A DNA stretch of 64,000 nt from Spirochaetia bacterium UBA6919 (GCA_002450905.1 DKAT01000070.1:70097-134096), one strand, 5' to 3'; positions 6,610 to 49,857 are shown, numbered from the stretch's first letter. Numbers and translations are program-made. Notes: generated from the sequence alone by a model not told the origin.

Positions 6610-8031
6610 TTAAATAATTCTAAAGCCATCGATGAGGGAGCATCTCCGTTCCCGGGTAAAATTAATCGATGTTGTAAGCCCCTCACCCGTCGGACTCGCT
6701 ATTGTAAAAGAGGTATACCCCGGACCTCCAAATCCCAAGCCATTATAATTAGGCCCATTCTTCACAAAAATAGACGCATTCACGAGTCTCGCCATCTTGG
6801 ATAATTTCGATACATTCTGAGAATACATCACCGCAGTATGTCGGTTATTCTGCTCAACTTCCAAAGCAAACTGGATCGCCTCATCCACACAAGATACCCG
6901 CACCAGAGGGATAATCGGCATGAGTTGTTCAGTCCACACAAGGGGATGATCGGCAGGTACATCCATAAATGCAATACGCACATTCTCATCCACATCGATA
7001 TTGGCATGCCGTAAAATATATTGCGCAGATTTCCCCACAAACTCTTTTTTCATGTGACCACCACACCCCGGCTTGCCCTGATCAGCCATAATAAGATCGG
7101 TAACCCGCTTAATCTGCTGTCCTTTGAGTTCAAAAGCTCCATACTTCTTCATTGCCTGTTTAAGAGATTGAGCTACAGAATCCACGACGATGATTTCTTT
7201 CTCACAGGTACAAATGATATTGTGATCGAATCCAGCCCCATCGACAATGCCCTTCCCGGCCTGATCTATAATCGCCGTTTCATCCACCACCACAGGAGGA
7301 TTGCCAGGACCCGCCGCTATCACCTTCTTTCCACTATTCATGGCCACTTTCACGACAGCAGGACCCCCTGTCACAACGAGGAGACGAATATCCTTATGCT
7401 TCATCAACTCCTGAGCTGATTCTATAGTAGGGTTTGCAATGGTTGTTACAAGATTTTCAGGTCCCCCAGCTGATATGATCGCTTCATTAATGAGTCTTAC
7501 CGTTTCAGAAGAGGTTTTTGTAGCTGTGGGATGGGGATTAAACACAACGCTGTTCCCACCGGAGATCATCCCGATAGAATTACAGATAATAGTTTCAGAA
7601 GGGTTAGTGACGGGAGTAATCGATCCAATAACCCCATAAGGAGCTCGTTCCATAATCATCAGTCCATCGTCATCACTATAACTCAATGAACGGAGTATCT
7701 CTGGACCCGGAGTTCTTTCAACAGCCAGGGTATTTTTCTTAATCTTATCCCGAACATTCCCCAATCCCGACTCCTCAACAGCGAGAGAAGCCAAATAATC
7801 AATGTGATTCCTTAAATGAGCACGGATGCTATTAATAATCTGCTCTCGTTTCCTGAGTCCTAAATCCATAAGAGATTCATAAGCCTGATATGCCTTAGCG
7901 ATAGCCGTGTTACAATCATTAAAACTCCCCAATCCCTGAGAATTAGGATAAGACTTTGGTGTCCCCCCACTTTGCAACTGGCTTATAACCTGTTCCACAA
8001 TACTATTGATCTGTGCTTCTGAAAAGTTCAT
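6610..8031 (-). CDS. aldehyde dehydrogenase family protein (CoA-acylating EutE/PduP-like)
   Basis: 473 aa. Rossmann-type G-rich segments, a catalytic-Cys region (ICTCEKEIIVVDS) and a size typical of acetaldehyde/propionaldehyde dehydrogenases. RBS GAGGGAGA upstream. Confidence 0.7.
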   Translation of the reverse strand: MNFSEAQINSIVEQVISQLQSGGTPKSYPNSQGLGSFNDCNTAIAKAYQAYESLMDLGLRKREQIINSIRAHLRNHIDYLASLAVEESGLGNVRDKIKKNTLAVERTPGPEILRSLSYSDDDGLMIMERAPYGVIGSITPVTNPSETIICNSIGMISGGNSVVFNPHPTATKTSSETVRLINEAIISAGGPENLVTTIANPTIESAQELMKHKDIRLLVVTGGPAVVKVAMNSGKKVIAAGPGNPPVVVDETAIIDQAGKGIVDGAGFDHNIICTCEKEIIVVDSVAQSLKQAMKKYGAFELKGQQIKRVTDLIMADQGKPGCGGHMKKEFVGKSAQYILRHANIDVDENVRIAFMDVPADHPLVWTEQLMPIIPLVRVSCVDEAIQFALEVEQNNRHTAVMYSQNVSKLSKMARLVNASIFVKNGPNYNGLGFGGPGYTSFTIASPTGEGLTTSINFTRERRCSLIDGFRII

Positions 8032-8185
8032 GTTTCTCCCTCGAATCGTGAAGGATGAATATTAATAAGGATTCCCCGTTTTGTCAATGTAAACCGTTCG
8101 AATATCTTGAAATTGTAAATATTTTTATCGTAAAATTCAACGATAGTTTAAAGATTATACCATCCAATTACAAAAAATAATCGCA

Positions 8186-8213
8186 ATCGGAACTAAGAAT
8201 TTTGATTCCGATC
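8186..8213. repeat. palindromic motif ATCGGAAC-N13-GATTCCGATC (copy 1 of 4)
   Basis: 7-bp inverted arms atcggaa/ttccgat with a 13-nt spacer. Near-identical copies at 51402-51429, 58508-58535 and 60012-60039, all intergenic. Confidence 0.6.
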
Positions 8214-8350
8214 TTGTTTATTTATTTCGTCAGGGTCTCAAGATTTTTAATTTACCCTGTCGACTTTGTATGAACAATAGTTACTATCCTTGTGAGGCAC
8301 TAATATCCATGACCAGTCAAGACACTGAGTAACGAGAAGACTTACTAGCA

Positions 8351-8440
8351 TGTCATGGTGAGGCTCTCGAACCATGTGATAAACAAGACCCTTCGAGAAC
8401 CTCAGGGTGACGGAGGTTGAGTCTCAGGATGACAGGGATT
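8351..8440. repeat. nested-palindrome repeat element, copy A
   Basis: gtcatggtgaggctctcgaaccatg...cccttcgagaacctcagggtgac, i.e. roughly 20-nt inverted arms around a short loop, followed by a ctcaggatgacag submodule. Same family as the copies at 16242, 18349, 18884, 19618 and 20005. Confidence 0.6.
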
Positions 8441-8496
8441 ATAGCTTAAAGTAACAGGGGTTGTGGCTCAGAGTGTTTTATTTAAGGAGGCTACCA

Positions 8497-9162
8497 ATGG
8501 CGATTATTTTAGAAGGGGTGGATCACAGTCCGGTAATGTGGGGTAAGATAGGCAAACACCTTGTCCAGAGGACTAAACTCGGTAAGATGTTCATTAAAAT
8601 TAAGGTGACACCAGCAAATCCGAAAACTCCAATCCAACAGGAGAAGAGGAGTGCTTTGACTGTGGGGGTTCTAAGATGGAAGAACTTTGAGAAACTCTTT
8701 AATAAGGATTATTGGGATCTTATGGCTGTGGATCATCGGTTTAGAGATGGATATAGGGCATTCTTATCCTCGTTTCTCGTAACCTATAGGATGAAGTTAT
8801 CAGAATTAGGAGATCACACCCAAGCTCTGGAATATGTTTCGAATACATCAAATCCCATTACGTATCAGGAGTCCCCGAAGAAAATTAGGATGGAAGAGAG
8901 AGATCGACGACTCATCAAGGCGATTTATACTTATCGGAAAACGAAAAGTTTTATGAGACAACTGGGACGAAGTTTAAAATATCTGGATACTCATCAGTGG
9001 TTGAATGTCATGCGATATGGGATTCTTCCGGATTCGGGGAAAGTGATTGATGATGTGTGGTACGACATGGGGATTATCCCGCCCTATGAACCGATTCCCA
9101 AGGGAAATTTTGGGACAGGGAAATTCGGGAGAGGGGTTTTTGGGGGAAAGAGGGTAATCTAA
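8497..9162 (+). CDS. hypothetical protein with Gly-rich C-terminus
   Basis: ORF with a strong AAGGAGG RBS 7 nt before the ATG at 8497. The ORF track's 8461 start lies inside the repeat. No recognisable domain. C-terminal GNFGTGKFGRGVFGGK. Confidence 0.5.
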   Translation: MAIILEGVDHSPVMWGKIGKHLVQRTKLGKMFIKIKVTPANPKTPIQQEKRSALTVGVLRWKNFEKLFNKDYWDLMAVDHRFRDGYRAFLSSFLVTYRMKLSELGDHTQALEYVSNTSNPITYQESPKKIRMEERDRRLIKAIYTYRKTKSFMRQLGRSLKYLDTHQWLNVMRYGILPDSGKVIDDVWYDMGIIPPYEPIPKGNFGTGKFGRGVFGGKRVI

Positions 9163-9691
9163 TATTCAATTTTACATTTTGGTAATGCATTTTTTAATTC
9201 TTCTACCTGTTCTTTAGATACTTTTGTACCCAATAGTTCAAGTACTTTTAAATTCCTGAGATCTTTTAAGGGTCTTAGGTTGTATACAGGTGTCCATGCT
9301 AGGGTAAGATATATTAGGTTTCTGAAGTCTTTTAAGGGTGTCAGGTCAGATATTTGTATACCATCACAAGACCAAGTCGCTGTAAGTTCCTGAGGTCTTT
9401 AATTGGAGTGAGATCTGATATATTTGAATAATTCAGATATAATTTTTTTAGTGAAGTGAGAGTTGATAAAGGTTGAAAATCTATGATTGAATTTTTATTT
9501 TTCAATATACCAATGAGAACGAGTTCCTTGATCGTTTTGAGTTGGTCTATGGTATAGTGTTTGCCTTGTTCTTTTAGCCATTTTTGGGTGTCTTCTAAGG
9601 TGTATTGCTTGGAATGAGAGATGTTTATGGTGATCAGAACTACAATGCAGGCTGTTACGAAATAGGTTATTATTTTAAAAGAGTTTTTCAT
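9159..9691 (-). pseudogene. leucine-rich-repeat lipoprotein-like gene, frameshifted
   Basis: N-terminal signal peptide and LRR units (LYLNYSNISDLTPIKDLRNLQRL). The reading frame breaks near 9360 but LRR units continue in the -1 frame (DLTPLKDFRNLIYLTL...LGTKVSKEQVEELKKALPKCKIEY) to a stop at 9159. Confidence 0.55.
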
Positions 9692-9737
9692 ATCTTTGTC
9701 CTCTATTTGATTGGAATATAATATAGAATTATCTTGA

Positions 9738-9807
9738 ATGTCAAGGAAAATATTTTTGTCATAGGTGGTGATTTCGGGTTGGAGGGTCGAGAATCTTTAT
9801 AGGGGTT
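9738..9807 (-). promoter_or_regulatory. ~70-bp conserved cassette-upstream module R1, ending in a TTGACA -35
   Basis: One of 4 near-identical direct repeats (consensus gtcaagaaaaatatttttatcctgagtggtgatttcggg..gacgagaatctttatgggg). In the gene (minus) orientation it ends in TTGACA, followed 17 nt later by TTATAT and an AGAGGA RBS for the LRR gene. Confidence 0.5.
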
Positions 9808-9823
9808 TTGTGATTTCGATGAA

Positions 9824-10039
9824 TTATTTTAACTGATTGAACTCTTCTGAAGTAATACCCATTTGTTTGATGATCTCATAGTATAATGGGGGTTCTATGT
9901 TTGTGGAAGGATGAATAGGAATTGTTGTTGCTCTGCCATCCTTGTGAATCCATCTTTGATGAGATCCCTTCTGGCGTGATATGGAGAATCCCAGTTTCTC
10001 TGCAACCCTTTGAAATGTTTTGGCATTGTCACCTGGCAT
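9824..10039 (-). CDS. hicA: HicA-family mRNA interferase toxin
   Basis: 71 aa. The segment LGFSISRQKGSHQRWIHKDGRATTIPIHP matches the YcfA/HicA fold. Overlaps the upstream hicB by 11 nt. Confidence 0.75.
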   Translation of the reverse strand: MPGDNAKTFQRVAEKLGFSISRQKGSHQRWIHKDGRATTIPIHPSTNIEPPLYYEIIKQMGITSEEFNQLK

Positions 10040-10241
10040 GGATCGATAGTTCTACATCCTCAGGAAGTTCCAGATGTTTTTCAGCATATTCTTCTGCTAT
10101 CATAGAAAACACACATTCCAATTCCTTTAAAACTTCGTCTCTTGTGGGCATAATGGCATGGCATCCTGGAATTGCGGGTATATAAGCTCCCCATGAATTA
10201 TCTTTCTGTTGATATAATACAATTTTATAATTACCGATCAT
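10029..10241 (-). CDS. hicB: HicB-family antitoxin (UPF0150)
   Basis: 70 aa. YxxxxxxxxDGxWxAxxPxxPGC pattern (YQQKDNSWGAYIPAIPGCHA) typical of the HicB N-domain. Sits upstream of hicA. Confidence 0.75.
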   Translation of the reverse strand: MIGNYKIVLYQQKDNSWGAYIPAIPGCHAIMPTRDEVLKELECVFSMIAEEYAEKHLELPEDVELSIHAR

Positions 10242-10271
10242 GGTTTAATGTTAACTAAAATTATTTGCTGT

Positions 10272-10340
10272 GTCAAGAAAAATATTTTTATCCTGAGTGG
10301 TGATTTCGGGTTGGGTTGACGAGAATCTTTATGGGGTTGG
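10272..10340 (-). promoter_or_regulatory. cassette-upstream module R2
   Basis: Repeat copy 2. In minus orientation it ends in TTGACA, then 17 nt, then TAACAT only 6 nt before the hicB ATG, which would give a leaderless or near-leaderless transcript. Confidence 0.5.
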
Positions 10341-10351
10341 TAAATTATTTA

Positions 10352-10555
10352 TTATCGATTTTCTGTGTTGATGGCAATTAAGATTTGTTTTACAACTTTT
10401 GGATGGAGAATTTTTCCACTGTGAAAGGGAATGATAATCTTCTTATCGTCTCTTTCATAGATTCGATGGCTTCCTCTGGTTCTTAGTAATTGAAATCCTG
10501 CTGTTAGTAGAAGAGATTCACCTTCCTTTGCGGTGAGACGAGATTGTTTAGACAA
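10352..10555 (-). CDS. hicA: HicA-family toxin (second copy)
   Basis: 67 aa, RTRGSHRIYERDDKKIIIPFHSGKILHPK. Confidence 0.7.
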   Translation of the reverse strand: MSKQSRLTAKEGESLLLTAGFQLLRTRGSHRIYERDDKKIIIPFHSGKILHPKVVKQILIAINTENR

Positions 10556-10558
10556 TTT

Positions 10559-10774
10559 TTAAACCTCAAGACTTGTTGTGAGAATCTCCTTACTGCATAC
10601 CAGTCTTTTTTCTTCATCTGTCAGGGTTTCCATATAGAGAGTGACTGCTTCTTTGATATTTGCCATAACCTCTTCTATCGTATCACCCTGGGTTTGACAT
10701 CCTTCTAATTCTGGGGAATAGGCGTAGTAGCCAAATTCATCTTTTTCAATAACAATCGATACTTTATAGGACAT
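10559..10774 (-). CDS. hicB: HicB-family antitoxin (second copy)
   Basis: 71 aa, FGYYAYSPELEGCQTQGDTIEEVMANIKEA (UPF0150 pattern). Lies 3 nt upstream of hicA. Confidence 0.7.
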   Translation of the reverse strand: MSYKVSIVIEKDEFGYYAYSPELEGCQTQGDTIEEVMANIKEAVTLYMETLTDEEKRLVCSKEILTTSLEV

Positions 10775-10833
10775 TTATATTATTCCTTGTAATACTTATT
10801 TATCCTCAATATTACATAATTTTCTGTAGATTT

Positions 10834-10895
10834 TCAAGAAAAATATTTTTATCCTGAGTGATGATTTCGGATACGGGTGACGAAAATCTTAGCAG
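10834..10895 (-). promoter_or_regulatory. cassette-upstream module R3
   Basis: Repeat copy 3. In minus orientation: TTGAAA, 17-nt spacer, TAATAT, 34-nt leader with an AAGGA RBS 9 nt before the hicB-2 ATG. Confidence 0.55.
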
Positions 10896-10925
10896 GAAGT
10901 ATTGTTATTAAAAGGATTTTATATA

Positions 10926-12653
10926 TTATTGAGTTAGAAAGCCTTTCAGAAAGCTGGTTAAACCATTTCGTATGCCTCTGACGTTGTATCCCCCTTCCTG
11001 TACAACAAGGATAGGTCTTTTTAATGTGTTCAGCTGTGAAGCAATCTCTTCATATATCCCAGGGCTTAATAGGAAAAGTCCTGTGGGATCACCCTTTAAA
11101 ATATCGAATCCAAGGGAAAGCACTATGACATCTGGATTGTAATTCTTAATAATAGAAATAACCTTTCCAAAGGTCTTTAGATATTTCATTTCATCTGTTT
11201 TTGGAGCTAGAGGGAAATTATAATTATGATGTAAGCCTTCTGCTTCACCTGTCTCAGATTCATAACCACTGAAATAAGGATAGGAATAATCAGGGTGCCC
11301 ATGAATGGATATGGTGAGGACATCACTCCTGTGATAGAAGATATCTTGAGTTCCATTTCCGTGATGGTAGTCTATATCAATTATCACAACACGACCTTCT
11401 AAGCTGAGATAATGGGCTGCAATGGCAGCATTATTAAAATAACAGAAACCCCCATAAAATCTCCTTCCAGCGTGATGACCTGGCGGACGACATACGGCAT
11501 AGGTTAATTTTTTTCCAGATAATATTTCATCAGCACAGGTTAGGACAGCGTTTACTGCAGAACGAGCCGCTTTGTATGCATTGGGATAAAGTGGAGTCCC
11601 TGAATCTAGACAATAATACCCTGCCTGAACAGGTAATAATTTGGGATGATTATCAGGTCTACGGATAGGAAAGGTGTCTGGATAGATGGGTCGTTTTTCT
11701 TTTAGTGTAGTACAAACTGTTCTAAGATAATGTACAAATCTTTTTTCATGGACTGCTAAAATCCATTTCTCTTCATATTCTCTGGGACTTACGATAGATA
11801 TACCTCCTACTGAATCAATTACTTCCCGTATAGTATCTACCCGAACCGGCTTTTCAAAATATCCTCTTTCCTTGATATGATGAATTTCATGTTTAGCAGT
11901 GAAAACACACACCATGCTTGAAATCGATTGTGACTTTGATAATTTTATTTGTTTACTTGAAATGGACTTCACATATCGAAAGGGGTGGAATGGGATGGGG
12001 TCTTCCTGAAATGATTCAATGACGTGCTGGGTATACTCAGGAGTAACTGATTTTGCAAACCGTGTTTTGAATATAAGTTGAATGGTATTCTTAGCATCAT
12101 CTGCACTAAGGGTATTGGATATTCCCAAACCATCGTATAGGAGATAGGCAGTGGATGGAGGGTTACCTGTTGGTGTGGAATAGGCTGGATTATTGATGAT
12201 ACGCACCCCATGTTGTTCATAGAACTGGATTCGTAGTTTAGCTAATTTTAATTCCTCTGGATTAGGTGTTAGTTCTGGTGTATCGGGTTGTACTTCCAGA
12301 TATATACCCTTAACAGACAGGCTCTTGCAGTACTCACTGATCGATTCATAAAGGGCTGATCCAACACCACGACCCTTTAAACCCTCTCGTGTAGCAATAA
12401 AATCAAGAAAACATACATTCTCTTGAGGATAGTAGATAAGAAGAGCAAATCCATCCACTCTACTCATGGCTCCTTCAGCAACAAAAAGAATAGAGCAATA
12501 TTGGTTTGTTATTGGATCAATAATGAGTGATGGAATTTTATCAGAATATCCTTCCAGATATGGAAAATTATATTTAAAAATCTCTTGTATTTGTTTCATT
12601 CTATCTTTTGAGAGAAGAGTTCCAGTATCCCTCAGGATTCGTATTCTAATCAT
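10926..12653 (-). CDS. GNAT acetyltransferase / histone-deacetylase-family (arginase-fold) fusion protein
   Basis: 575 aa. The N-terminal part has a GNAT acetyl-CoA-binding motif (REGLKGRGVGSALYE). The C-terminal part has HDAC-class signatures (HHAGRRFYGGFCYFNN, IIDIDYHHGNGTQDIFY, ISIHG). GGAG RBS 6 nt upstream of the ATG. Confidence 0.75.
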   Translation of the reverse strand: MIRIRILRDTGTLLSKDRMKQIQEIFKYNFPYLEGYSDKIPSLIIDPITNQYCSILFVAEGAMSRVDGFALLIYYPQENVCFLDFIATREGLKGRGVGSALYESISEYCKSLSVKGIYLEVQPDTPELTPNPEELKLAKLRIQFYEQHGVRIINNPAYSTPTGNPPSTAYLLYDGLGISNTLSADDAKNTIQLIFKTRFAKSVTPEYTQHVIESFQEDPIPFHPFRYVKSISSKQIKLSKSQSISSMVCVFTAKHEIHHIKERGYFEKPVRVDTIREVIDSVGGISIVSPREYEEKWILAVHEKRFVHYLRTVCTTLKEKRPIYPDTFPIRRPDNHPKLLPVQAGYYCLDSGTPLYPNAYKAARSAVNAVLTCADEILSGKKLTYAVCRPPGHHAGRRFYGGFCYFNNAAIAAHYLSLEGRVVIIDIDYHHGNGTQDIFYHRSDVLTISIHGHPDYSYPYFSGYESETGEAEGLHHNYNFPLAPKTDEMKYLKTFGKVISIIKNYNPDVIVLSLGFDILKGDPTGLFLLSPGIYEEIASQLNTLKRPILVVQEGGYNVRGIRNGLTSFLKGFLTQ

Positions 12654-12697
12654 ATAGGCTCCATTTTGTTGGAAAATAAAACATTATTATATTGAAT

Positions 12698-12767
12698 GTC
12701 AAGAAAAATATTTTTATCCGGGGTGGTGATTTCGGATCGGGGTTTCGAGAATCTTGAGGGGGTTTGG
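12698..12767 (-). promoter_or_regulatory. cassette-upstream module R4
   Basis: Repeat copy 4. Its 3' end abuts the stop of orf75. Its 5' end carries TTGACA with a weak TTATTT/TATTTT -10, about 40 nt before the GNAT-HDAC ATG. Confidence 0.45.
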
Positions 12768-12775
12768 GAAATGTT

Positions 12776-13003
12776 TTAATCTGTATTAAAATAATTTAGT
12801 TGTTCCTGAGATATTTCTTTCCACGCTGACCTTGGAACTCCATATTCAGTTTCTGCTTGTTCCAATGTGATTTCCAAGGTATCTTGCAAGTGGTCAGCAA
12901 TACTTATTCCACTCTTTTCAGGATATACAAATAAATAATATCCGACACCTTCTTCTTGTTTAAGGATAAGTGTTAATTTAACTTCTGCAATAAGTGGCTT
13001 CAT
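12776..13003 (-). CDS. hypothetical small protein
   Basis: 75-aa acidic ORF between typA and the repeat array. No recognisable domain. Confidence 0.4.
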   Translation of the reverse strand: MKPLIAEVKLTLILKQEEGVGYYLFVYPEKSGISIADHLQDTLEITLEQAETEYGVPRSAWKEISQEQLNYFNTD

Positions 13004-13081
13004 ACAATCTCAGAGGTTCAATAATCTCATTGGCGTTTTCTGATATCATTTTTAAAGAAAAGTTATTATTTATCTCTTTAT

Positions 13082-14902
13082 CTATTCTTTCTTTGACTGG
13101 CGTTTACGATCCGTTTCCTTGAGAAATTTTTTACGTAACCGGATATTTTGTGGGGTGATTTCCACATATTCATCGTCCTGGATATACTCTAATGCCTTTT
13201 CAAGAGTCATTTTAAGGGGTGGTACAAGACGTATTGCCTCATCAGATCCTGATGCACGGACGTTTGTTAATTTCTTTTCCTTTATAGGATTTACCGTTAA
13301 GTCTGAACCCTTGTTGTGTTCCCCGATGATCATTCCCTCATATACTTCAGTAGCCGGATCAATGAAGAGTGGTCCACGCTCCTGGAGATTCCATAGAGAA
13401 TAGGCAGTGGCTACACCACCCTCTGCGGATATAAGGGATCCTACACTTCTCTTATCTATTTTGCCTTTGTAAGGAGCATAGTGATCAAATGAGTGATACA
13501 TAGTGCCTTCACCACGTGTTAATATGATGAATGTTGATCTGAATCCAAGAATACCCCGTGTTGGGATTAAAAATTCCATTATGGTATTCCCTTTATCAGA
13601 GGACATACTCTTTAATTCTGCTTTACGAGGGGATAAGGCTTCAATAACTTTACCTGATATTTCATCTGGAACCGTAATAACAACCTGTTCAACGGGTTCA
13701 TGATTTTTTCCATCGATTTCCTGTAAAATGACTTTTGGCTGTGAGACTTGCAATTCAAATCCTTCACGTCGCATATTTTCTATCAGAATAGCTAAGTGCA
13801 TTTCTCCTCGTCCGTATACCTTGAATACATCAGCATTTTCAACTGTTTCCACGTTAAGACCTACGTTGGTTTCAAGCTCACGAAAGAGTCTTTGCCGGAT
13901 ATGTCGACTGGTAACAAAATTTCCCTCACGACCAGCAAAGGGGGAATTATTTACCATAAAATCCATAGCAAGGGCGGGTGGATCTACTTTTATTGCTGGA
14001 AGAACTTCAGCAGATTCATTTGTAGATATCGTTTCTCCCACATAGACATAAGGTAGTCCTGCTATAGCTACAATATCACCTGCAATGACTTCATCAACCT
14101 CTCGTCGTTCCATACCATGAAATGTAAAGACATTTGTAATTTTACCAGTTCGTTTATGACCTTCTAGATCAAATATAAAAACATTTTCCCCAGATTTCAC
14201 CTTTCCTTCATATATTCTACCGATAGCTATGCGTCCTTTAAAGTTATCATAGGTTAATGTAGCGGGTTGCATTCTGAAATCCTTTTCTGTATCAGAGATT
14301 GATATGGGGACATGCTCGATAATAAAGTCCAGTAGGGGAATAATATCCTTTTTCTCGTCGTTCAGATCTTTATATGCAATTCCTTCTCTCGCAATGGCAT
14401 AGATATACGGGAAATCTAATTGCTCATCTGTGGCACCCAGTTTATCCATCAGCTCAAAGATTTGGTCTACAACAACCGCTGGTTTTGCCTGTGGACGATC
14501 CATTTTATTTAATACAACAAGAATTGGCAAGCCCAAAGCAATGGATTTTGATAACACAAACTTCGTCTGGGGCATGGGACCTTCATAAGCATCGACAACG
14601 AGGATGACTGCATCAACCATTCTTAAAATACGCTCTACTTCCGATCCAAAATCAGCGTGACCTGGGGTATCGACAATATTAATTTTTGTGTTATTATAGG
14701 TGATGGCGGCATTTTTAGCGTAAATTGTAATACCACGCTCTTTTTCCTGATCATCACTGTCCATCATACGGACTTCTAATTCCTTGTGTTCTGAAAAAAC
14801 TTTACCAGCCTTCAAAAGGGCATCAACGAGGGTGGTTTTCCCGTGGTCAACGTGGGCTATGATAGCTATATTTCGGATTTCCTGTTTCATATCAACTCTC
14901 AA
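13082..14902 (-). CDS. typA: translational GTPase TypA/BipA
   Basis: 606 aa. G-domain motifs AHVDHGKTT, DTPGH, NKMD. Domain order matches the EF-G-like TypA. The true start may be the second Met (MKQEIRNIAII) at about 14890. Confidence 0.9.
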   Translation of the reverse strand: MRVDMKQEIRNIAIIAHVDHGKTTLVDALLKAGKVFSEHKELEVRMMDSDDQEKERGITIYAKNAAITYNNTKINIVDTPGHADFGSEVERILRMVDAVILVVDAYEGPMPQTKFVLSKSIALGLPILVVLNKMDRPQAKPAVVVDQIFELMDKLGATDEQLDFPYIYAIAREGIAYKDLNDEKKDIIPLLDFIIEHVPISISDTEKDFRMQPATLTYDNFKGRIAIGRIYEGKVKSGENVFIFDLEGHKRTGKITNVFTFHGMERREVDEVIAGDIVAIAGLPYVYVGETISTNESAEVLPAIKVDPPALAMDFMVNNSPFAGREGNFVTSRHIRQRLFRELETNVGLNVETVENADVFKVYGRGEMHLAILIENMRREGFELQVSQPKVILQEIDGKNHEPVEQVVITVPDEISGKVIEALSPRKAELKSMSSDKGNTIMEFLIPTRGILGFRSTFIILTRGEGTMYHSFDHYAPYKGKIDKRSVGSLISAEGGVATAYSLWNLQERGPLFIDPATEVYEGMIIGEHNKGSDLTVNPIKEKKLTNVRASGSDEAIRLVPPLKMTLEKALEYIQDDEYVEITPQNIRLRKKFLKETDRKRQSKKE

Positions 14903-15080
14903 GTGAATATATATTTATTTGATTATATCTTTTATAAATATTCAAATATCAATTCATAATTATTTTATATTAAATGGGAGGGAAATATAATGTTTTTTTT
15001 TAGATAGGGGAAAATAATTTTAATAAATCGATTTTATGGGAATATTTATACGTCATTGAATGTATTGGCGGAACTATTTT

Positions 15081-15539
15081 TTAAGCACTTTTATCTGGAT
15101 TTTCTGGTACCATATAAGGATTCCAGGCGATCTCCCAGGGATGTCCATCCAGATCTGAGAAATATCCAGAATAACCACCCCAATCAGTATCCATAGGCTG
15201 TCTTGTAATTATCCCACCTGAATTTTCTGCCTGCTTGAGAAGATTATCCACTTCAATTTTACTTGAGACAACCTGAGCCAGGGTTATTCCGCTATATCCT
15301 ACGTTATCTATTAAATTAGCATCGATACTCAGAAGATTTCTTGGATATAATGCCAGATTGGAACCTATATTCAATTGGAACAGTGCAAAATCTCCTCCAC
15401 TGAGATCAGATAGTGACAATCCAAGGACATCAGAATAAAACCGGATAGCCTTCTTAAGATCACTTACACCCAGAGTAACAATATTAATCACCCTGAAATC
15501 CTTTATCAATATAGAATGATTGGGAAAAATCCTTTTCAT
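15081..15539 (-). CDS. VOC-family (glyoxalase/bleomycin-resistance fold) protein
   Basis: 152 aa. VINIVTLGVSDLKKAIRFYSDVLGL matches a glyoxalase-like beta-alpha-beta-beta-beta module. The start codon is uncertain; the ORF overlaps the upstream ORF by about 55 nt. Confidence 0.6.
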   Translation of the reverse strand: MKRIFPNHSILIKDFRVINIVTLGVSDLKKAIRFYSDVLGLSLSDLSGGDFALFQLNIGSNLALYPRNLLSIDANLIDNVGYSGITLAQVVSSKIEVDNLLKQAENSGGIITRQPMDTDWGGYSGYFSDLDGHPWEIAWNPYMVPENPDKSA

Positions 15540-16242: not shown

Positions 16243-17408
16243 ATGGTTCGAGAGCCTCACCATGACAGTTTTGATATTAATGCAACGATTAACGGGGAGG
16301 TGGTTGAAATTAGTGTTGAGGATACTGGGATTGGTATTGCTGGAGATAAATTGGATGTTATATTTCAATCATTTCGCCAGGAAGATTCTGGAATAGTCAG
16401 GACTTTTGGAGGAACGGGTCTTGGATTAACTATTAGTAAAACCCTTATAGAACTTCATGGAGGTACAATCGCTGTTCATTCCACTAAAGGACTGGGTTCT
16501 CAATTTAATTTTACCACACCCAAAGCGGATATTGCCCATGAATCGGTCATCATTGACCAGCCCATAGCTATGATAACAAATAATCTATCCTTAGAAAGTT
16601 CTCTGGAAGGATCAAATATCCAATCTATTCAAGGGAAACGGGGAAGGATTCTTGCTGTGGATGATGATCCTGTAATTCTCCATGTTCTGGTAAATTATCT
16701 TACTTAGAGAAATATTCCGTACAAACGGCGAATAATGGGCAGATTGCACTGGATATGATTAAAAATCAGTCCTTTGACATGGTGTTCCTAGATATTATGA
16801 TGCCAATAATGAGTGGGTATGAGGTTTATAAACGCATACGAGAAAAATATTCTCCTGTGGAATTGCCAATTATATTACTAACTGCACGAAATCAGATATC
16901 AGATCTTATAAAGGGACTTGAGATAGGTGCTAATGATTATTTAACAAAGCCCTTTAGTCGGGGTGAGTTTATCGCACGAATGAAAACTCATTTGAGTATT
17001 TCCTATTATTATAAACAAATCATAGAATTAAACAGGGAATTAAACCAAAATATCAAGGTGAGAAGAAGTGTTACCACAAAAATTCATTCAGGTAAGGTGC
17101 AGGGGATACTGGATATTTATCTGGAATAATTAAATAATATTGTAAAACACTCATCAGCAAAGAATGTTGATATACGGGTTACTTATGAGAATGATATTTT
17201 CTCCTTATCAGTAAAGGATGATGGAATTGGTTTTAATACTGAATCTTTTGTCAAAAAGAATAATTCTTATGGTATGAATATTATTCGTGAATTAGTACAG
17301 TAAATGGATAGTGAATATCATTATAATTCCTCTATTAATCAAGGAACTGAATTTACTATCTCCGTGAAAGATTGTCCATTACCCCCTTCTAATCTTCATT
17401 TTATTTAA
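16243..17408 (+). pseudogene. decayed paralog of the C-terminal half of the 7TMR-DISM hybrid histidine kinase
   Basis: Three successive frames encode an HATPase_c fragment, a receiver fragment and a second HATPase fragment. These align with residues about 560-1027 of the kinase at 39387-42470, for example EVVEISVEDTGIGIAGDKLDVIFQSFRQEDSG versus EMVEISVKDTGIGISEEKLDLIFESFQQGDSG. There are two frameshifts, an internal deletion and an in-frame stop. The 5' end coincides with a repeat arm at 16242-16268. Confidence 0.75.
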
Positions 17409-18199: not shown

Positions 18200-18348
18200 A
18201 TATCTGACTGGGAAGGGAACACAACGAATTATCATTGATAATCTCCTTTAATTTATTAACATGCAGTTAACTTTCATCCTGCCCTCTTCATGATGGAGAG
18301 GGAGTTTCAGGGTGATAGAAGTGGGTAAGTCTTAGAGTGACACAGGAT

Positions 18349-18422
18349 TGTCATGGTGAGGTTCTCGAACCATGTTTGTACAACGCTTGTGTGTGTCCCC
18401 CTTCGAGAGCCTCAAGGTGACA
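18349..18422. repeat. nested-palindrome repeat element, copy C
   Basis: attgtcatggtgaggttctcgaaccatg...cccttcgagagcctcaaggtgacaat. The outer 7-bp inverted repeat is also complementary. Confidence 0.6.
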
Positions 18423-18569
18423 ATGGAGTAGCTCTGGGTGTGACGGAGGGAGAAATCAAGCCCTTCGACAGGGAAGGTATTCAATGCCGTGAAGAAAGAT
18501 ATTCAAATAAATGTTCTCCAAATAACGAATATTGATTATAATTATCATAACGTTATTGAATAAAGGGGT

Positions 18570-18710
18570 TTTCTTATGAAAGATTTAAGATTTAAACAGG
18601 AGTTGATGGATGAATTTAATGATTTATCAGAACAACAAATAAAAGAAGTTTTGGACTATGTTTACTTTGTCAAAGCAAGATTGACACTAGATCCTTCTCA
18701 GATGTATTTC
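18570..18710 (+). CDS. small antitoxin-like ORF (possible TA remnant)
   Basis: 46 aa, MKDLRFKQELMDEFNDLSEQQIKEVLDYVYFVKARL. It resembles the small antitoxins that pair with PIN or RelE toxins. An in-frame stop is followed by 33 more codons, and no toxin gene follows. It is below the ORF-track size cutoff. Confidence 0.3.
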
Positions 18711-18883
18711 TAGACATCCCAGTGGCAGAAGATGGAACAGGACGTCAATCAGGATAAATTATCGAATCAGATTACAGGAGATGAGATATTATGAGGGTTG
18801 TTGCCAATCACGATGATGTGTTAAAAAATCCGTGATGGGTAGAATTGTCGTCCTTCCCCTGCTCCTGGACAGCCGTGTGCTTG

Positions 18884-18975
18884 TCGCCCTTCGAGAATCT
18901 CAGGGTGAGGAGGGGGAAAATCCTGAATCAAGTTCAGGATGACAGAGAGGGCTGAAGACTCGCCCTACGGAGGAT
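18884..18975. repeat. repeat element copy D (right arm plus ctcaggatgacag / ggctgaag..gcc.tacgga submodules)
   Basis: cccttcgagaatctcagggtgagg...ttcaggatgacagagagggctgaagactcgccctacgga. Shares submodules with copies A and F. Confidence 0.5.
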
Positions 18976-19098: not shown

Positions 19099-19299
19099 AT
19101 GTCTCAGATCCATGAAATCCAGAAGGCTGTAGAATCTCTATCCGATCAGGATTACAAGGAATTCAGGCAATGGTTTTATGATAAAGAAAATAATCGGTGG
19201 GAAGAGCAAATTAAAAGAGACTCTGAATCAGGGGTTCTCGATTTTTTAATAAAAGAAGTCCGGGAGGAAAAGAAACTGGGGAATCTGAAGGACTTATGA
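19099..19299 (+). CDS. putative antitoxin of a RelE/ParE-type TA pair
   Basis: 66-aa acidic ORF whose stop overlaps the toxin start by 4 nt (ATGA). AGGAGG RBS upstream. Confidence 0.55.
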   Translation: MSQIHEIQKAVESLSDQDYKEFRQWFYDKENNRWEEQIKRDSESGVLDFLIKEVREEKKLGNLKDL

Positions 19300-19559
19300 G
19301 GCACTTCACATCCCGACGATTCTGGAAATGCTTTAATAATCTTCCTGAACATGTTCAGGAATTGTCAAACAGGAAGTTCAATTTATTGAAGAAGAATCCA
19401 AAACATCCTTCCTTACATTTCAAGAAAATAGGATCACTGTGGTCCGTCAGGGTGGATGATCATTACAGGGCATTAGCGGTTGAAGATGAGGAGGATATGA
19501 TCTGGGTTTGGATAGGACATCATGATGAATACGAAAGATTACTGGCTGCTAGTCGGTGA
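19296..19559 (+). CDS. RelE/ParE-superfamily toxin
   Basis: 87 aa. HFKKIGSLWSVRVDDHYRALAVEDEEDMIWVWIGHHDEY is the typical RelE/StbE-family C-terminal pattern. Translationally coupled to the upstream small ORF. Confidence 0.7.
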   Translation: MRHFTSRRFWKCFNNLPEHVQELSNRKFNLLKKNPKHPSLHFKKIGSLWSVRVDDHYRALAVEDEEDMIWVWIGHHDEYERLLAASR

Positions 19560-19617
19560 TTATGGAATCATCCTTTGAGTGGATCAGGTAGGGGTTTGTT
19601 ATGGAGAGGTTACAAAC

Positions 19618-19685
19618 TGTCATGGTGAGGCTCTCGAATCCATGACTGGGTGTTGTCGCCCTTCGAGAGCCTCAGGGTGACGGGG
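19618..19685. repeat. nested-palindrome repeat element, copy E
   Basis: tgtcatggtgaggctctcgaatccatg...cccttcgagagcctcagggtgacgg, immediately upstream of the GIY-YIG gene. Confidence 0.6.
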
Positions 19686-19706
19686 GCGGGCATAAAGGAT
19701 TTTAGG

Positions 19707-19976
19707 ATGAAAACATATTCTGTTTATATTCTCCGGTGCAACGATGAAAGCTATTATACCGGGGTGACGAATGATATTGAATTGCGATTAGAAGAACATC
19801 ATCATGGAGTTGATAATAAATGTTATACCTATCCCCGACATCCTGTTCAGTTGGTGTTTTATGAGGAGTTTGGCGATATCAATGATGCGATTGGTCGGGA
19901 GAAGCAGATTAAGAAGTGGTCGAGGGCGAAGAAAGAGGCTTTGTTTAGGGGTATTATGATGGGTTGGTTCGGTTGA
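19707..19976 (+). CDS. GIY-YIG domain protein (UPF0213/YhbQ-like)
   Basis: 89 aa from the ATG at 19707 (AAAGGA RBS). YSVYILRC...YYTGVTNDIELRLEEHH...REKQIKKWSRAKK. The 5' part of the longer ORF-track frame is just repeat sequence. Confidence 0.75.
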   Translation: MKTYSVYILRCNDESYYTGVTNDIELRLEEHHHGVDNKCYTYPRHPVQLVFYEEFGDINDAIGREKQIKKWSRAKKEALFRGIMMGWFG

Positions 19977-20004
19977 GTCAGAGGTATAGTCCACAAGACG
20001 GTAG

Positions 20005-20095
20005 TCATCCTTCGAGAGCCTCAGGATGACAAGGGGAATTCAGAGTGGCAGTGAGGTGGCAAGGCTGAAGGCTTGCCATACGGAACAATATGATA
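20005..20095. repeat. repeat element copy F (collapsed hairpin form)
   Basis: gtcatccttcgagagcctcaggatgac (7-bp stem around the ttcgagagcctca core), then ggctgaaggcttgccatacgga, a submodule shared with copy D. Confidence 0.5.
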
Positions 20096-30700: not shown

Positions 30701-30880
30701 ATCCATGATCTCCGGGCTTGCACCTTTGAGTGTCGTTGTAATGGTGACCATTGGATAATCTACTTTCGGGTACAGATCAAGACCAATATCTGGGTAACTG
30801 ACAACACCAAGTATGACAAGGGATGCTATCATCATCGTTGCAAAGACAGGCCTTTTAATAGAAGTATCAGCTAACCACAT
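27761..30880 (-). CDS. RND efflux transporter permease (HAE1/AcrB family), pump 2
   Basis: 1039 aa, 12-TM architecture with two large periplasmic loops, and RND motifs throughout. About 60% identical to the upstream paralog. Confidence 0.9.
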   Translation of the reverse strand: MWLADTSIKRPVFATMMIASLVILGVVSYPDIGLDLYPKVDYPMVTITTTLKGASPEIMDIDVTDKIEEAVNTINGVKSISSSSTEETSVITIEFILERNIDLSVQDVREKVSSIRSLLPKDILEPIIQKVDPDATPILWLNLTGRKSVRDLSTYADEVLKNKIQRINGVGAIQLSGLRLRQVRIWLSIDKLSAHQITAQDISNALSKENIELPGGRIESKTKEYGIKIKGEFRSPQQFNELIIGYDKGTPIRIQDVGRAEDSMEEKRSIARFNGKTTVALGVQKQSGTNTVAVIKLVKKELENIKTTLPPGMAIDISFDQSTFIQRSINEVKTHLIYGGIFAALAVLLFLKSFRITLISALAIPTSVIATFYMIYFFNFTFNDMTMLALSLSIGILIDDAIIVIENIHRHIETGLSPKEASSKATSEIGLAVMATTMAVVAIFLPVAFMKGMIGRFFLQFALTVVFSVMFSLFVSFTLTPMLSSKFLKRTHHSDPSYHKTLIGKISDLIEKPYFLLENMYRKTLDLALRHRIIVITCTIIIFILSLYLTNFIGKELIPPEDQGSFIIRLEAPIDYSIDQSDKMFNKVENYLKSLPEVKSVFYSLGTNQGEINKATMFVTLTPKIQRKRYQDELKSIVRKKLNNIVGLKASAEDVTSFAGEGQERQVPIQLSIRGIDLKVLEHLTKKISAEVRKIKGFVDIDTSLKSGKPELRVFINRDKAADLSINAATIGEAINFLIGGEVDITKYKDERKGRRYDVRVRLFHKDRSDPKDIEQIYVRSNDNRLIKLQNIIDIKETGGPNVINRVDRQRAITLFANLEGKTLGQAKQELDKILSNVLSFGYSGRYKGSAELMSESFQYLYFALILGIILAYMILASQFESFIHPFTILLSMPFSFIGAFGALYLANMTLNIYSYIGLILLMGLVKKNAILLVDYTNTLRNQGMERKEAILKAGPVRLRPILMTTMAMVFGMLPIALATGEGAESRAPMAVATIGGLMSSLFLTLIVVPVVYDLFDEIQSRFKSKNIDEDEDEVLIPQ

Positions 30881-49272: not shown

Positions 49273-49397
49273 CCCGTATACAAACGTTCCCTTCCAATCA
49301 GCCATTCCAAATTATCCAAATTTTTCTTCCCCTTAATTAAAAATAATATATATTTCATATCAATATTGTTCTATGGATAATTCGATAATCGTTTAAA

Positions 49398-49661: not shown

Positions 49662-49857
49662 AATCATTTTATACTGGAGTGAGGAGGATGGATCATATAT
49701 CGCAGAAGTTCCCGAATTAGCAGGATGTTCAGCCGATGGATCCACCTATCAGGAAGCCCTTGAGAACGTAGAAATCGTCATCGCAGAATGGATTGAAACC
49801 GCCCAATCGCTGAATCGTCCCATCCCAAAACCAAAGGGGCGACTTCTCTTTGCATAA
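49648..49857 (+). CDS. hicB: HicB-family antitoxin (UPF0150)
   Basis: 69 aa, DGSYIAEVPELAGCSADGSTYQEALENV. Confidence 0.7.
   Translation: MTKYEIILYWSEEDGSYIAEVPELAGCSADGSTYQEALENVEIVIAEWIETAQSLNRPIPKPKGRLLFA

What the first reader, a model, noticed from the sequence alone, without database searches (positions are those of the whole stretch)
9692..12775. Cassette-like array: four ~70-bp direct repeats, each ending in a TTGACA -35, precede an LRR gene, two hicBA operons and a GNAT-HDAC fusion
Four almost identical ~70-bp modules (9738-9807, 10272-10340, 10834-10895, 12698-12767) lie in the same orientation on the minus strand. The core sequence is gtcaagaaaaatatttttatcctgagtggtgatttcgg...gacgagaatctt.atgggg. 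Each abuts the stop of the preceding gene within 0-12 nt. Each ends, in the gene direction, with an AAAAATATTTTT palindrome followed by TTGACA/TTGAAA. A -10-like hexamer (TAATAT, TAACAT, TTATAT, TATTTT) sits 17-18 nt downstream in the unique flank. The module is therefore a portable promoter/UP-operator unit supplying the -35 for the LRR lipoprotein gene, hicBA-1, hicBA-2 and the GNAT-HDAC gene. TA operons are normally autoregulated from their own unique operators, so a shared 70-bp upstream module suggests either a common regulator or modular acquisition of cassettes. The latter would resemble integron/CALIN arrays, but without a classical attC core. For hicB-1 the -10 is only 6 nt from the ATG, implying a leaderless mRNA. 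The LRR gene in the same array carries a frameshift.
Basis: partly seen in the sequence, partly recalled or inferred. Interest (0 to 1): 0.72.

Follow-up and report, generated by a model that had tools for sequence, protein, structure and literature searches.

The report
Reused promoter module before four genes
Four near-identical ~95-bp stretches are copies of the promoter region of a small leucine-rich-repeat gene family, now also sitting in front of two toxin-antitoxin operons and an acetyltransferase-deacetylase gene; this is a clear but ordinary case of promoter reuse, not an integron-like cassette array.

Summary
Four co-oriented copies of one module lie at 9713-9809, 10246-10339, 10805-10901 and 12671-12765 on the minus (gene) strand, and nowhere else in the 64 kb. 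Three independent assemblies reproduce them exactly.

The array is not self-contained. The same module, in the same orientation, sits directly 5' of two paralogues of the LRR gene on other contigs of the same organism. There it follows unrelated upstream genes.

All six copies share this layout: AAGATTyTyG, a variable C-rich spacer, CCGAAATCAyCA, AAAATATTTT, a -35 (TTGACA in five copies, TTGAAA in c3), then a -10 in register 17-18 nt further on. All three LRR loci carry TTGACA-18-TATATT.

The closest foreign relatives of hicB-2 (83-85% amino-acid identity) and of the GNAT-HDAC gene (66-72%) lack the module. Homology of hicB-2 to those relatives begins at its ATG.

No attC boxes, significant hairpin, terminal inverted repeats, integrase or transposase were found.

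Best reading: a sigma-70 promoter with an upstream regulatory block, native to the LRR family and propagated to three unrelated transcription units. It meets the published sequence definition of a "putative mobile promoter". How it spread, and which regulator binds it, remain unknown. Promoter activity is inferred from sequence, not measured.

The parts
12671..12765 (-). Module copy c4, between orf75 and the GNAT-HDAC gene. Box A 12746-12755, box B 12723-12735, A/T palindrome 12704-12715, -35 TTGACA 12697-12702, -10 TATTTT 12673-12678.
   Evidence: nhmmer E 1e-24; box coordinates; promoter scan 10 of 12.
10805..10901 (-). Module copy c3, between GNAT-HDAC and hicB-2. Box A 10881-10890, box B 10858-10870, palindrome 10839-10850, -35 TTGAAA 10832-10837, -10 TAATAT 10809-10814.
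   Evidence: nhmmer E 6e-23; (9 of 12).
10246..10339 (-). Module copy c2, between hicA-2 and hicB-1. Box A 10320-10329, box B 10297-10309, palindrome 10278-10289, -35 TTGACA 10271-10276, -10 TAACAT 10248-10253. The -10 ends 6 nt before the hicB-1 ATG at 10241.
   Evidence: nhmmer E 2.5e-22; (10 of 12).
9713..9809 (-). Module copy c1, between hicA-1 and the LRR gene. Box A 9788-9797, box B 9765-9777, palindrome 9746-9757, -35 TTGACA 9739-9744, -10 TATATT 9715-9720.
   Evidence: nhmmer E 5e-23; (11 of 12, the best in 8000-15500). Orthologous in layout to L017 1413-1508 and L018 9917-10013.
9159..9691 (-). Small secreted LRR protein gene, frameshifted at about 9356-9365. It belongs to a paralogue family (P0242-P0244), and the two members whose loci could be fetched (P0243, P0244) carry the same module upstream; P0242's could not be fetched.
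   Evidence: Pfam LRR_4; three-frame translation; tblastn of the paralogues; homologue search.
9824..10241 (-). hicBA-1 operon: hicB-1 10029-10241 (70 aa, no DNA-binding domain) and hicA-1 9824-10039.
   Evidence: Pfam PF15919 and PF07927.
10352..10774 (-). hicBA-2 operon: hicB-2 10559-10774 (71 aa) and hicA-2 10352-10555. Only 32-33% amino-acid identity to hicBA-1. It belongs to a HicB family that is 73-85% identical across several phyla.
   Evidence: DNA homology to the foreign homologues starts at the ATG.
10926..12653 (-). GNAT acetyltransferase fused to a histone-deacetylase-type domain, 575 aa. Member of a widespread conserved family.
   Evidence: Pfam. The search scored 7,982 proteins at E <= 0.001, the nearest at 72% identity. 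The three closest relatives' loci show no synteny and no module.
12776..13003 (-). orf75, a small protein of an uncharacterised family. It is the last gene before the first module and has no module upstream.
   Evidence: No Pfam, NCBIfam or PADLOC hit. 113 representatives at E <= 0.001. No PDB sequence or fold match.

Best explanation
Each repeat is a copy of a roughly 95-bp sigma-70 promoter with an upstream regulatory block.

Layout, with positions counted from a start site placed 7 nt after the -10:
- -10: TATATT, TAACAT, TAATAT or TATTTT.
- 17-18 nt spacer.
- -35: TTGACA, or TTGAAA in c3.
- An invariant AAAATATTTT palindrome at about -37 to -48, in the position of an UP element.
- An invariant dyad, GATTyTCG-N11-CGAAATC, centred near -73.

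The module is the native 5' region of a family of small secreted LRR proteins. The two family members whose loci could be fetched, on other contigs of the same genome, carry it. In this window it has additionally been placed in front of three unrelated units: GNAT-HDAC, hicBA-2 and hicBA-1. As a result four consecutive co-directional units each start from their own copy.

The two HicB antitoxins are 70-71 aa and have no DNA-binding domain, so they cannot autoregulate in the classical way. They presumably depend on this borrowed promoter.

Inferred mechanism: RNA polymerase with the housekeeping sigma factor starts transcription 12-28 nt upstream of three of the start codons and at the ATG of hicB-1, giving a leaderless mRNA. 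The dyad probably binds one unidentified dimeric regulator that ties the LRR family, the deacetylase and the two TA operons into one regulon.

The C-rich, G-poor upstream half of the module lies just after the preceding stop codon. It may also act as a Rho-loading tract that insulates each unit from read-through.

Shown: the repeat family, its layout, its constant position and orientation 5' of genes, and its absence from the foreign relatives of the captured genes that were examined.
Inferred: promoter activity, the regulator, the insulator role and the route of spread.
For: - Six copies at three loci, all oriented towards a start codon 6-34 nt after the -10.
- The upstream genes are unrelated: hicA-1, hicA-2, GNAT-HDAC, orf75, a DegT aminotransferase and a PAS histidine kinase. 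The module therefore goes with the downstream gene, not with a 3' gene end.
- The -35 and -10 are conserved in sequence and spacing: TTGACA-18-TATATT at all three LRR loci, 11 of 12. The other three copies keep hexamers in register.
- Variation is clustered, not uniform. Ten of the 11 columns between the dyad arms vary while the flanking blocks are invariant (permutation p = 0.007).
- The module is not carried with the captured genes. HicB-2 homologues of 83-85% identity carry different upstream sequences (TTGATA/TTGACA-type boxes are visible in L014/L015). DNA homology begins at the ATG, or 7 nt before it for one homologue.
- GNAT-HDAC relatives lack the module.
- hicBA-1 and hicBA-2 are 32-33% identical in protein, yet their modules are 89.5% identical over 57 nt.
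- The published sequence criterion for putative mobile promoters is met by four pairs: at least 50 nt at 80% identity or more, with non-homologous CDSs on both sides (definition in PMC3488235).
- The upstream half has C-G = 17-20 per 50 nt in three copies, at or near the 99.9th percentile of the window (18 for that strand).
- No intrinsic terminator lies between the units.
Against: - There are no transcription data. In a 36% G+C genome, sigma-70-like matches are common: 53 found against 27.5 expected in 7.5 kb.
- Between the LRR paralogues, the module core (68-76% identity) is no better conserved than synonymous third positions of their coding sequences (71-76%). Overall identity alone therefore does not prove constraint. 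Only the block pattern of variation does, and it rests on six sequences.
- The dyad is invariant and shows no covariation. It cannot be assigned to protein binding rather than a hairpin.
- No candidate regulator was identified. orf75 gave no DNA-binding signal.
- Only about 85 kb of this genome could be inspected, so the true copy number and distribution are unknown.
Confidence: 0.6

Rival explanations
1. The repeats are recombination sites (attC-like, or sites of another site-specific recombinase) that bound mobile cassettes. The array would be a CALIN-type remnant, and the promoter-like hexamers would be incidental.
For: - Four co-oriented sites within 3 kb separate small accessory-type genes, including two TA operons.
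- hicBA-2 is clearly horizontally spread.
- The repeats are far more alike than the genes they flank.
Against: - No R''/R' boxes.
- Single-strand folds of -3 to -7 kcal/mol, with z-scores between -2.1 and +0.1.
- The only dyad has an 11-nt spacer that is the most variable segment.
- No integrase, recombinase or transposase among the 41 ORFs of the 64 kb that were scanned with Pfam.
- The same module occurs singly, 5' of LRR paralogues, at two unrelated loci.
- GNAT-HDAC is a conserved gene family, not a typical cassette.
Confidence: 0.05
2. The module is a small non-autonomous selfish repeat (MITE- or REP-like) that inserts into intergenic DNA. It would carry an outward-facing promoter only by accident, as Correia elements do.
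For: - A discrete common 5' boundary in all six copies.
- Copies occur upstream of non-homologous genes.
- The genome carries at least one other dispersed intergenic repeat family.
Against: - No terminal inverted repeats or target-site duplications are visible in the alignments.
- All six copies have the same orientation relative to the next gene.
- The 3' boundary differs between copies: it ends at the -10 in c2 and c3 but runs to the ribosome-binding site in c1, c4 and L017.
- No transposase lies in the window.
- No copy was found in other genomes, metagenomes, plasmids, phages or viral contigs. The collection scans required an exact pattern, so they would miss diverged copies.
Confidence: 0.12
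3. The conserved part acts mainly at the RNA level, at the 3' end of the upstream transcript. It would be a C-rich, G-poor Rho-loading (rut) tract or a processing/stability element between cistrons, and the four units would be expressed largely by read-through.
For: - Extreme C>G skew on the gene strand.
- The hypervariable spacer stays C-rich and almost G-free in all six copies: 2 G in 66 nt.
- The module starts 6-28 nt after the preceding stop codon in five of six copies.
- No intrinsic terminators.
- The sequence is predicted to be unstructured, as rut sites are.
Against: - Rut sites need composition, not sequence, so the invariant blocks and the invariant -35/-10 geometry are left unexplained.
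- At L018 the module lies 85 nt beyond the upstream stop.
- This role is compatible with the promoter reading rather than exclusive of it.
Confidence: 0.12
4. The copies are neutral leftovers of local segmental duplications of an LRR gene's 5' region and have no present function.
For: - Identity between LRR-locus copies is no higher than at synonymous sites.
- The neighbouring copies show a mosaic pattern: c2 resembles c1 in its 5' half and c3 in its 3' half, which suggests gene conversion.
Against: - Variation is significantly clustered into blocks.
- Every copy is placed so that a start codon follows the -10 within 6-34 nt.
- No LRR coding remnants lie next to c2, c3 or c4.
- The hicB genes have no other recognisable promoter. 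Their native upstream regions are absent.
Confidence: 0.08

Closest known systems
Putative mobile promoters / promoter propagation (Matus-Garcia, Nijveen and van Passel 2012, PMC3488235)
   Same: Homologous upstream sequences of at least 50 nt at 80% identity or more, in front of non-homologous CDSs within one genome and with non-homologous upstream CDSs. The paper's showcase family is also from a spirochaete: Treponema brennaborense, 10 copies, conserved from -5 to -120.
   Different: - Here four copies are in tandem, on consecutive co-directional units.
- The donor context can be named (an LRR paralogue family).
- Two recipients are horizontally acquired hicBA operons whose antitoxins lack a DNA-binding domain.
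- That survey catalogued families by sequence only and proposed routes of spread without demonstrating one. The route is unknown here too.
Borrelia erp/ospE-F 'upstream homology box' with the erp promoter/operator (PMC9112904 and references there)
   Same: A spirochaete gene family of secreted or surface proteins shares a highly conserved 5' promoter-plus-operator region. That region allows coordinated control by common DNA-binding proteins (BpaB, EbfC, BpuR).
   Different: - No sequence relationship was observed or tested beyond inspection.
- The erp operator is about 145 bp and lies on cp32 prophages.
- Here the loci are flanked by chromosomal core genes, and the module has moved to unrelated genes.
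- No binding proteins are known.
Integron attC sites / CALIN (Cury et al. 2016, PMC4889954)
   Same: At least two co-oriented repeats within 4 kb separate small accessory genes, with TA operons among them.
   Different: There are no R/L boxes, no palindromic folded structure and no integrase. Each repeat carries a promoter, whereas cassettes are typically promoterless. The repeat also occurs outside arrays.
Correia (CREE) and ERIC elements: MITEs that carry partial promoters (own knowledge; cited in PMC3488235)
   Same: Short intergenic repeats that supply -35/-10 boxes to adjacent genes.
   Different: Those elements have terminal inverted repeats, target duplications, both orientations and tens to hundreds of copies. 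None of these features is seen here.

Membership tests
Putative mobile promoter (PMP) | Two upstream regions align over at least 50 nt at 80% identity or more. | tested here: met
   blastn of the 150-nt upstream regions: LRR-hicB1 85.5% over 69 nt; hicB1-hicB2 89.5% over 57; hicB1-HDAC 84.1% over 82; hicB2-HDAC 86.0% over 57.
Putative mobile promoter (PMP) | The downstream CDSs are not homologous. | tested here: met
   The downstream genes are an LRR gene, hicB and GNAT-HDAC, which fall in different Pfam families. The two hicB genes are distant homologues (33% over 36 aa), so that one pair is borderline.
Putative mobile promoter (PMP) | The upstream CDSs are not homologous. | tested here: met
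   The upstream genes are orf75, GNAT-HDAC, hicA-2 and hicA-1, plus DegT and a PAS kinase at the other loci. Two of them (hicA-1 and hicA-2) are distant homologues (32%).
Sigma-70 promoter | -35 and -10 hexamers with a 16-18 nt spacer, correctly oriented before a gene. | tested here: met
   scores of 9 to 11 out of 12 in all six copies, in register in alignment A4.
Sigma-70 promoter | Transcription starts about 7 nt downstream of the -10. | not testable with these tools
   No transcriptome data for this organism are reachable.
Integron attC / CALIN | R'' (RYYYAAC) and R' (GTTRRRY) boxes 40-130 nt apart. | tested here: not met
   A regex search on both strands found no such pair between 8 and 21 kb, and only 2 per strand in the whole window.
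Integron attC / CALIN | Imperfect palindrome that folds as single-stranded DNA (R and L stems, unpaired spacer, extrahelical bases). | tested here: not met
   DNA folds of both strands give -2.7 to -7.1 kcal/mol with z-scores of -2.1 to +0.1. The only shared stem has 7 bp. IntegronFinder's covariance model itself was not available.
Integron attC / CALIN | At least two sites on one strand within 4 kb. | tested here: met
   Four copies in 3.1 kb. On its own this is not diagnostic.
Integron (complete) | An IntI tyrosine recombinase nearby. | tested here: not met
   Pfam scans of 41 ORFs across the 64 kb found no recombinase or transposase. Not every ORF was scanned; for example, the 2066-aa ORF at 21203-27403 and the 1032-aa ORF at 30949-34047 were not.
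MITE (for example Correia/ERIC) | Terminal inverted repeats and target-site duplication. | tested here: not met
   The ends AAGATTCTCG and TTTTTCTTGACA share only AAGA/TCTT. No flanking direct repeats appear in alignments A2 and A4.
MITE (for example Correia/ERIC) | Many dispersed copies in either orientation. | tested here: inconclusive
   Six copies were seen in about 85 kb, all 5' of genes. The rest of the genome could not be scanned.
Structured cis-regulatory RNA (Rfam family or new) | A match to a known model, or a conserved and stable structure with covariation. | tested here: not met
   Rfam gathering and E <= 1 scans found nothing. RNA folds have z-scores of -0.1 to -1.2. The 7-bp helix shows no covariation.
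Rho-dependent terminator (rut tract) | A C-rich, G-poor, unstructured tract downstream of a stop codon. | tested here: met
   C-G of 17-20 per 50 nt in three copies, at or near the 99.9th percentile (18), and 11 in c3. The tract is unstructured. Rho dependence itself is not testable here.
Type II hicAB toxin-antitoxin | HicA (PF07927) preceded by a HicB-fold antitoxin (PF15919). | tested here: met
   HicB-1 scores below the gathering threshold (23.9 bits against 27), but it aligns with HicB-2.
Type II hicAB toxin-antitoxin | The antitoxin carries a DNA-binding domain (RHH or HTH) for autoregulation. | tested here: not met
   The HicB proteins are 70 and 71 aa and match only positions 1-61 of the 123-position HicB model.

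The most novel reading that the evidence does not exclude
The array could record an integrase-independent way of capturing genes. Incoming promoterless coding units (here hicBA-2, hicBA-1 and GNAT-HDAC) would be joined at or just upstream of their start codon to a resident promoter/insulator module that is copied at each capture. The copying could happen by recombination or template switching within the module. The result would be a growing tandem series of self-contained units, each consisting of terminator-like tract, operator, promoter and gene. In this reading the module would be both the landing pad and the expression signal.
Probability: 0.1. Interest if true: 0.7.

Novelty: new member of a known kind. 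Interest (0 to 1): 0.35.

Why it matters
This is a well-resolved natural example of promoter reuse. The donor context (an LRR paralogue family), the recipients and the junctions can all be named. For hicB-2, homology to its foreign relatives begins at the ATG, or 7 nt before it for one homologue.

It offers a plausible answer to how hicAB pairs whose antitoxins lack a DNA-binding domain get expressed after horizontal transfer: they borrow a host promoter.

If one regulator binds the invariant dyad, then secreted LRR proteins, a protein acetyltransferase-deacetylase and two toxin-antitoxin systems form a single regulon in an uncultured bacterium, probably a spirochaete.

The finding does not reveal a new class of mobile element or a new recombination system.

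Tried and rejected
1. Exact-pattern scans gave only isolated chance matches in unrelated taxa. The pattern CGAAATCANCACN7AAAAATATTTT was run on genome contigs and metagenome contigs, and a relaxed pattern on viral contigs. Their nhmmer alignments cover only the pattern itself. These scans require 20-22 exact bases and would miss diverged copies. The source genome is evidently not in those collections.
2. blastn of the module against plasmids and phages found nothing beyond a 33-nt chance hit.
3. Rfam at gathering thresholds and at E <= 1 gave no hit.
4. The attC test, DNA and RNA folding, and covariation counting were all negative or uninformative.
5. Synteny of the GNAT-HDAC gene in its three closest relatives showed no shared neighbours and no module.
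6. orf75 was examined as a candidate regulator. It has no domain hit, its single-sequence AlphaFold model has pLDDT 73, and there is no meaningful PDB sequence or fold match. This led nowhere.
7. I tested whether the module is related to the second repeat family, which shares CGAGAATCT. The alignment shows a different, strongly hairpinned element, so this was rejected.
8. I looked for LRR coding remnants next to c2-c4, which would indicate a decayed tandem LRR array. tblastn found none.
9. I tried to argue for constraint from overall identity. This was rejected because synonymous sites of the LRR paralogues are equally similar.

Full report
**1. The observation**

The four repeats are there. 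The repeat finder groups 9701-9807, 10233-10339, 10794-10900 and 12659-12765 into one family, and reading the sequence confirms them. A profile built from the copies finds only these four in the 64 kb, at E 1e-21 to 1e-25. The next hit has E of about 0.02-0.07. The two longest invariant sub-motifs each occur four times, and no shuffle reached four.

The array is reproduced base for base in a Logan assembly of run ERR688354 (L008, which covers all four copies). It is also reproduced in ENA assembly contigs of ERR688355 (L012, L013). It is not an assembly artefact.

**2. Gene order**

All genes lie on the minus strand, in this order:
- bipA/typA, 13082-14902
- orf75, 12776-13003
- module c4
- GNAT-HDAC fusion, 10926-12653
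- module c3
- hicB-2 / hicA-2, 10352-10774
- module c2
- hicB-1 / hicA-1, 9824-10241
- module c1
- an LRR gene, 9159-9691

The LRR gene is frameshifted near 9356-9365.

**3. Anatomy of the module**

In gene orientation the copies align as follows:
- (A)CCCC...
- box A: AAGATTyTyG
- 10-11 variable, C-rich nt
- box B: CCGAAATCAyCA
- about 5 variable nt
- GA..AAAATATTTT
- 1-2 nt
- -35: TTGACA, or TTGAAA in c3
- 17-18 nt
- a -10-like hexamer

Boxes A and B contain a 7-bp dyad with one bulged base, GATTyTCG / CGAAATC.

Similarity does not stop at the -35. The -10 hexamers are in register, and c1 and c4 stay similar up to the ribosome-binding site. The unit is therefore about 95 nt, not 70.

The promoter scan recovers all four:

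| Copy | Match | Score |
|---|---|---|
| c1 | TTGACA-18-TATATT | 11 of 12 (best site in 8000-15500) |
| c4 | TTGACA-18-TATTTT | 10 of 12 |
| c2 | TTGACA-17-TAACAT | 10 of 12 |
| c3 | TTGAAA-17-TAATAT | 9 of 12 |

Such matches are common in this 36% G+C DNA: 53 were found against 27.5 expected. The scan alone is therefore weak evidence.

**4. The decisive result: the module is not confined to the array**

The LRR protein has three paralogues of 58-63% identity, encoded on other contigs. Two of their loci could be fetched.
- L017 comes from the ERR688355 assembly.
- L018, L019 and L020 come from SRR5324714, ERR688354 and ERR688355.

In both loci nhmmer finds the same module (E 1e-13 to 1e-22) directly 5' of the LRR start and in the same orientation. 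Both carry the identical TTGACA-18-TATATT. The 5'UTR and start codon align with c1. This also shows that the called start of P0244 is 11 codons too far upstream.

The genes upstream of these two copies are a DegT-family aminotransferase and a PAS histidine kinase. The module therefore travels with the LRR gene and not with the 3' end of whatever precedes it.

**5. The captured genes did not bring the module with them**

- HicB-2 belongs to a family of 74-aa antitoxins that are 73-85% identical across Nitrospirota, Deltaproteobacteria, Aminicenantes and even Methanoperedens.
- The closest members (83-85%) have unrelated upstream regions (TTGATA/TTGACA-type boxes are visible in L014 and L015). 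No module is present there.
- At the DNA level, homology to the window begins at the hicB-2 ATG, or 7 nt before it.
- The three nearest GNAT-HDAC relatives (66-72%) share neither neighbours nor module.
- hicBA-1 and hicBA-2 are only 32-33% identical in protein. Yet their upstream modules are 89.5% identical over 57 nt.

The module was therefore joined to these coding units within this lineage.

**6. What it is not**

- **Not attC.** No RYYYAAC...GTTRRRY pair exists. Single-strand DNA folds are only -2.7 to -7.1 kcal/mol and not better than shuffles. The attC definition is taken from PMC4889954.
- **Not a typical recombinase core site.** The spacer between the dyad arms is 11 nt and is the most variable part of the module: 10 of 11 columns vary (p = 0.007).
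- **No recombinase, integrase or transposase** among the 41 ORFs across the 64 kb that were scanned with Pfam. The neighbours are core genes: serS, rnf, bipA, secDF, purL, RND efflux.
- **Not a known RNA family**, and not a stable or covarying structure.
- **Not a MITE.** There are no terminal inverted repeats or target duplications.

**7. How it most likely works**

The constant geometry fits a housekeeping-sigma promoter with an UP-like element:
- the -10, -35 and A/T palindrome are immediately adjacent;
- the orientation towards a start codon is constant;
- the same hexamers are retained at three LRR loci.

If the start site is placed 7 nt after the -10, starts fall near 9708, 10241, 10802 and 12666. 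That gives short leaders carrying GAGGA, AAGGA or GGAG for three genes, and a leaderless hicB-1. Its ATG is the first possible start of the ORF and has no Shine-Dalgarno sequence.

The invariant dyad, centred near -73, is most simply a binding site for an unidentified dimeric regulator. Both HicB proteins match only the N-terminal half of the HicB model and lack a DNA-binding domain. They are therefore unlikely to autoregulate, which fits dependence on a borrowed promoter.

A second, compatible role is suggested by composition. The upstream half is extremely C-rich and G-poor on the gene strand: C-G is 17-20 per 50 nt in three copies, at or near the 99.9th percentile. The hypervariable spacer keeps that bias in all six copies, with 2 G in 66 nt. 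The tract is unstructured and starts soon after the preceding stop codon. No intrinsic terminator lies between the units. This is what a Rho-loading tract looks like, so the module may be a terminator-plus-promoter insulator. All functional statements in this section are inferences from sequence.

**8. Caveats**

- Between the LRR paralogues, the module core is 68-76% identical. Synonymous third positions of their coding sequences are 71-76% identical. Overall conservation therefore does not exceed neutral expectation. Only the clustering of variation into blocks argues for constraint, and it rests on six sequences.
- The array copies are more alike (73-86%) and show a mosaic pattern: c2 resembles c1 in its 5' half and c3 in its 3' half. 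This suggests either recent spread or gene conversion between neighbours.
- Only about 85 kb of the genome could be examined.
- The mechanism that copied the module is unknown.

**9. Comparison with what is known**

The closest described category is the 'putative mobile promoter' of Matus-Garcia et al. (PMC3488235). It is defined as upstream regions that align over at least 50 nt at 80% identity or more, in front of non-homologous CDSs and with non-homologous upstream CDSs. Four pairs here meet that criterion. That paper's showcase family, conserved from -5 to -120, is also from a spirochaete, Treponema brennaborense.

A functional analogue is the Borrelia erp 'upstream homology box' with its promoter/operator. 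It coordinates a family of surface proteins through shared DNA-binding proteins (PMC9112904). This is a resemblance only; no sequence relationship is claimed.

**10. Verdict**

- The portable-promoter interpretation is supported.
- The integron-like interpretation is not supported.
- This is a new member of a known kind, and interest is moderate to low.

The tandem arrangement of four copies, and the capture of two foreign hicBA operons whose antitoxins lack a DNA-binding domain, make it a clear example of promoter reuse. It is not a new system.

Noticed in passing
window 8347-8418, 18345-18428, 18848-18917, 19615-19688, 19966-20036 (+ strand); L017 2708-2771 (-): A second, unrelated repeat family forms long imperfect hairpins: GTCATGGTGAGGCTCTCGAA, a loop of about 20-35 nt, then TTCGAGAGCCTCAGGGTGAC. 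RNA folds give -29 to -53 kcal/mol, so the elements look REPIN-like. Four co-oriented copies at 18.3-20.1 kb separate small accessory genes: an antitoxin-like ORF at 18578-18712, an antitoxin plus RelE/ParE-like pair at 19100-19560, and a GIY-YIG ORF at 19707-19977 (gene identities read from the translated sequence, no family search run). This stretch looks more like a structured-repeat cassette array than the finding itself. It has no canonical attC boxes and no Rfam hit.
   Followed up: partly
window 8186-8212, 51402-51428, about 58508, 60012-60038; 3' end of L018: A short conserved hairpin, ATCGGAAC-N(8-10)-GATTCCGAT, recurs in intergenic DNA at several loci of this genome. It could be a terminator-like or REP-like element.
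   Followed up: no
window 10559-10774 (hicB-2): This 71-aa HicB belongs to a family of 74-aa proteins that are 73-85% identical across distant bacterial phyla and an archaeon (Methanoperedens). That implies very wide horizontal spread of this hicBA type.
   Followed up: partly
L018 10001-10435 (protein P0244): The database gene call starts inside the promoter spacer, 17 nt after the -35. Alignment with the paralogues places the true start at Met12 (MKIVEK...).
   Followed up: yes
window 12776-13003 (orf75): This small protein belongs to an uncharacterised family of proteins of about 65-75 aa. There are 113 representatives at E <= 0.001, with a conserved G-[FY]-Y-L ... D-H-L-Q-D ... W pattern. 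It has no Pfam, PDB or fold match.
   Followed up: partly
window 27761-30880 and 30949-34047; 16243-17237 versus 41059-42299: Two tandem AcrB-type RND transporter genes are 70-77% identical in the repeat blocks reported (only the first was scanned with Pfam). Separately, the C-terminal part of the hybrid histidine kinase at 39387-42470 is duplicated as separate HATPase and receiver ORFs at 16243-17129 (about 75-80% DNA identity).
   Followed up: no
window 21203-27403, 37316-38653, 47989-51295: A 2066-aa ORF shares internal DNA repeats with a Pfam-confirmed ankyrin-repeat protein at 37316-38653. Several further ankyrin-repeat genes lie at 47989-49272, 49850-50260 and 50450-51295. That is an unusual density of ankyrin and LRR proteins for a bacterium.
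   Followed up: no
window 8461-9162 (+): A 233-aa ORF converges on the LRR gene. It has no Pfam, NCBIfam or PADLOC match and ends in a glycine-rich tail.
   Followed up: no
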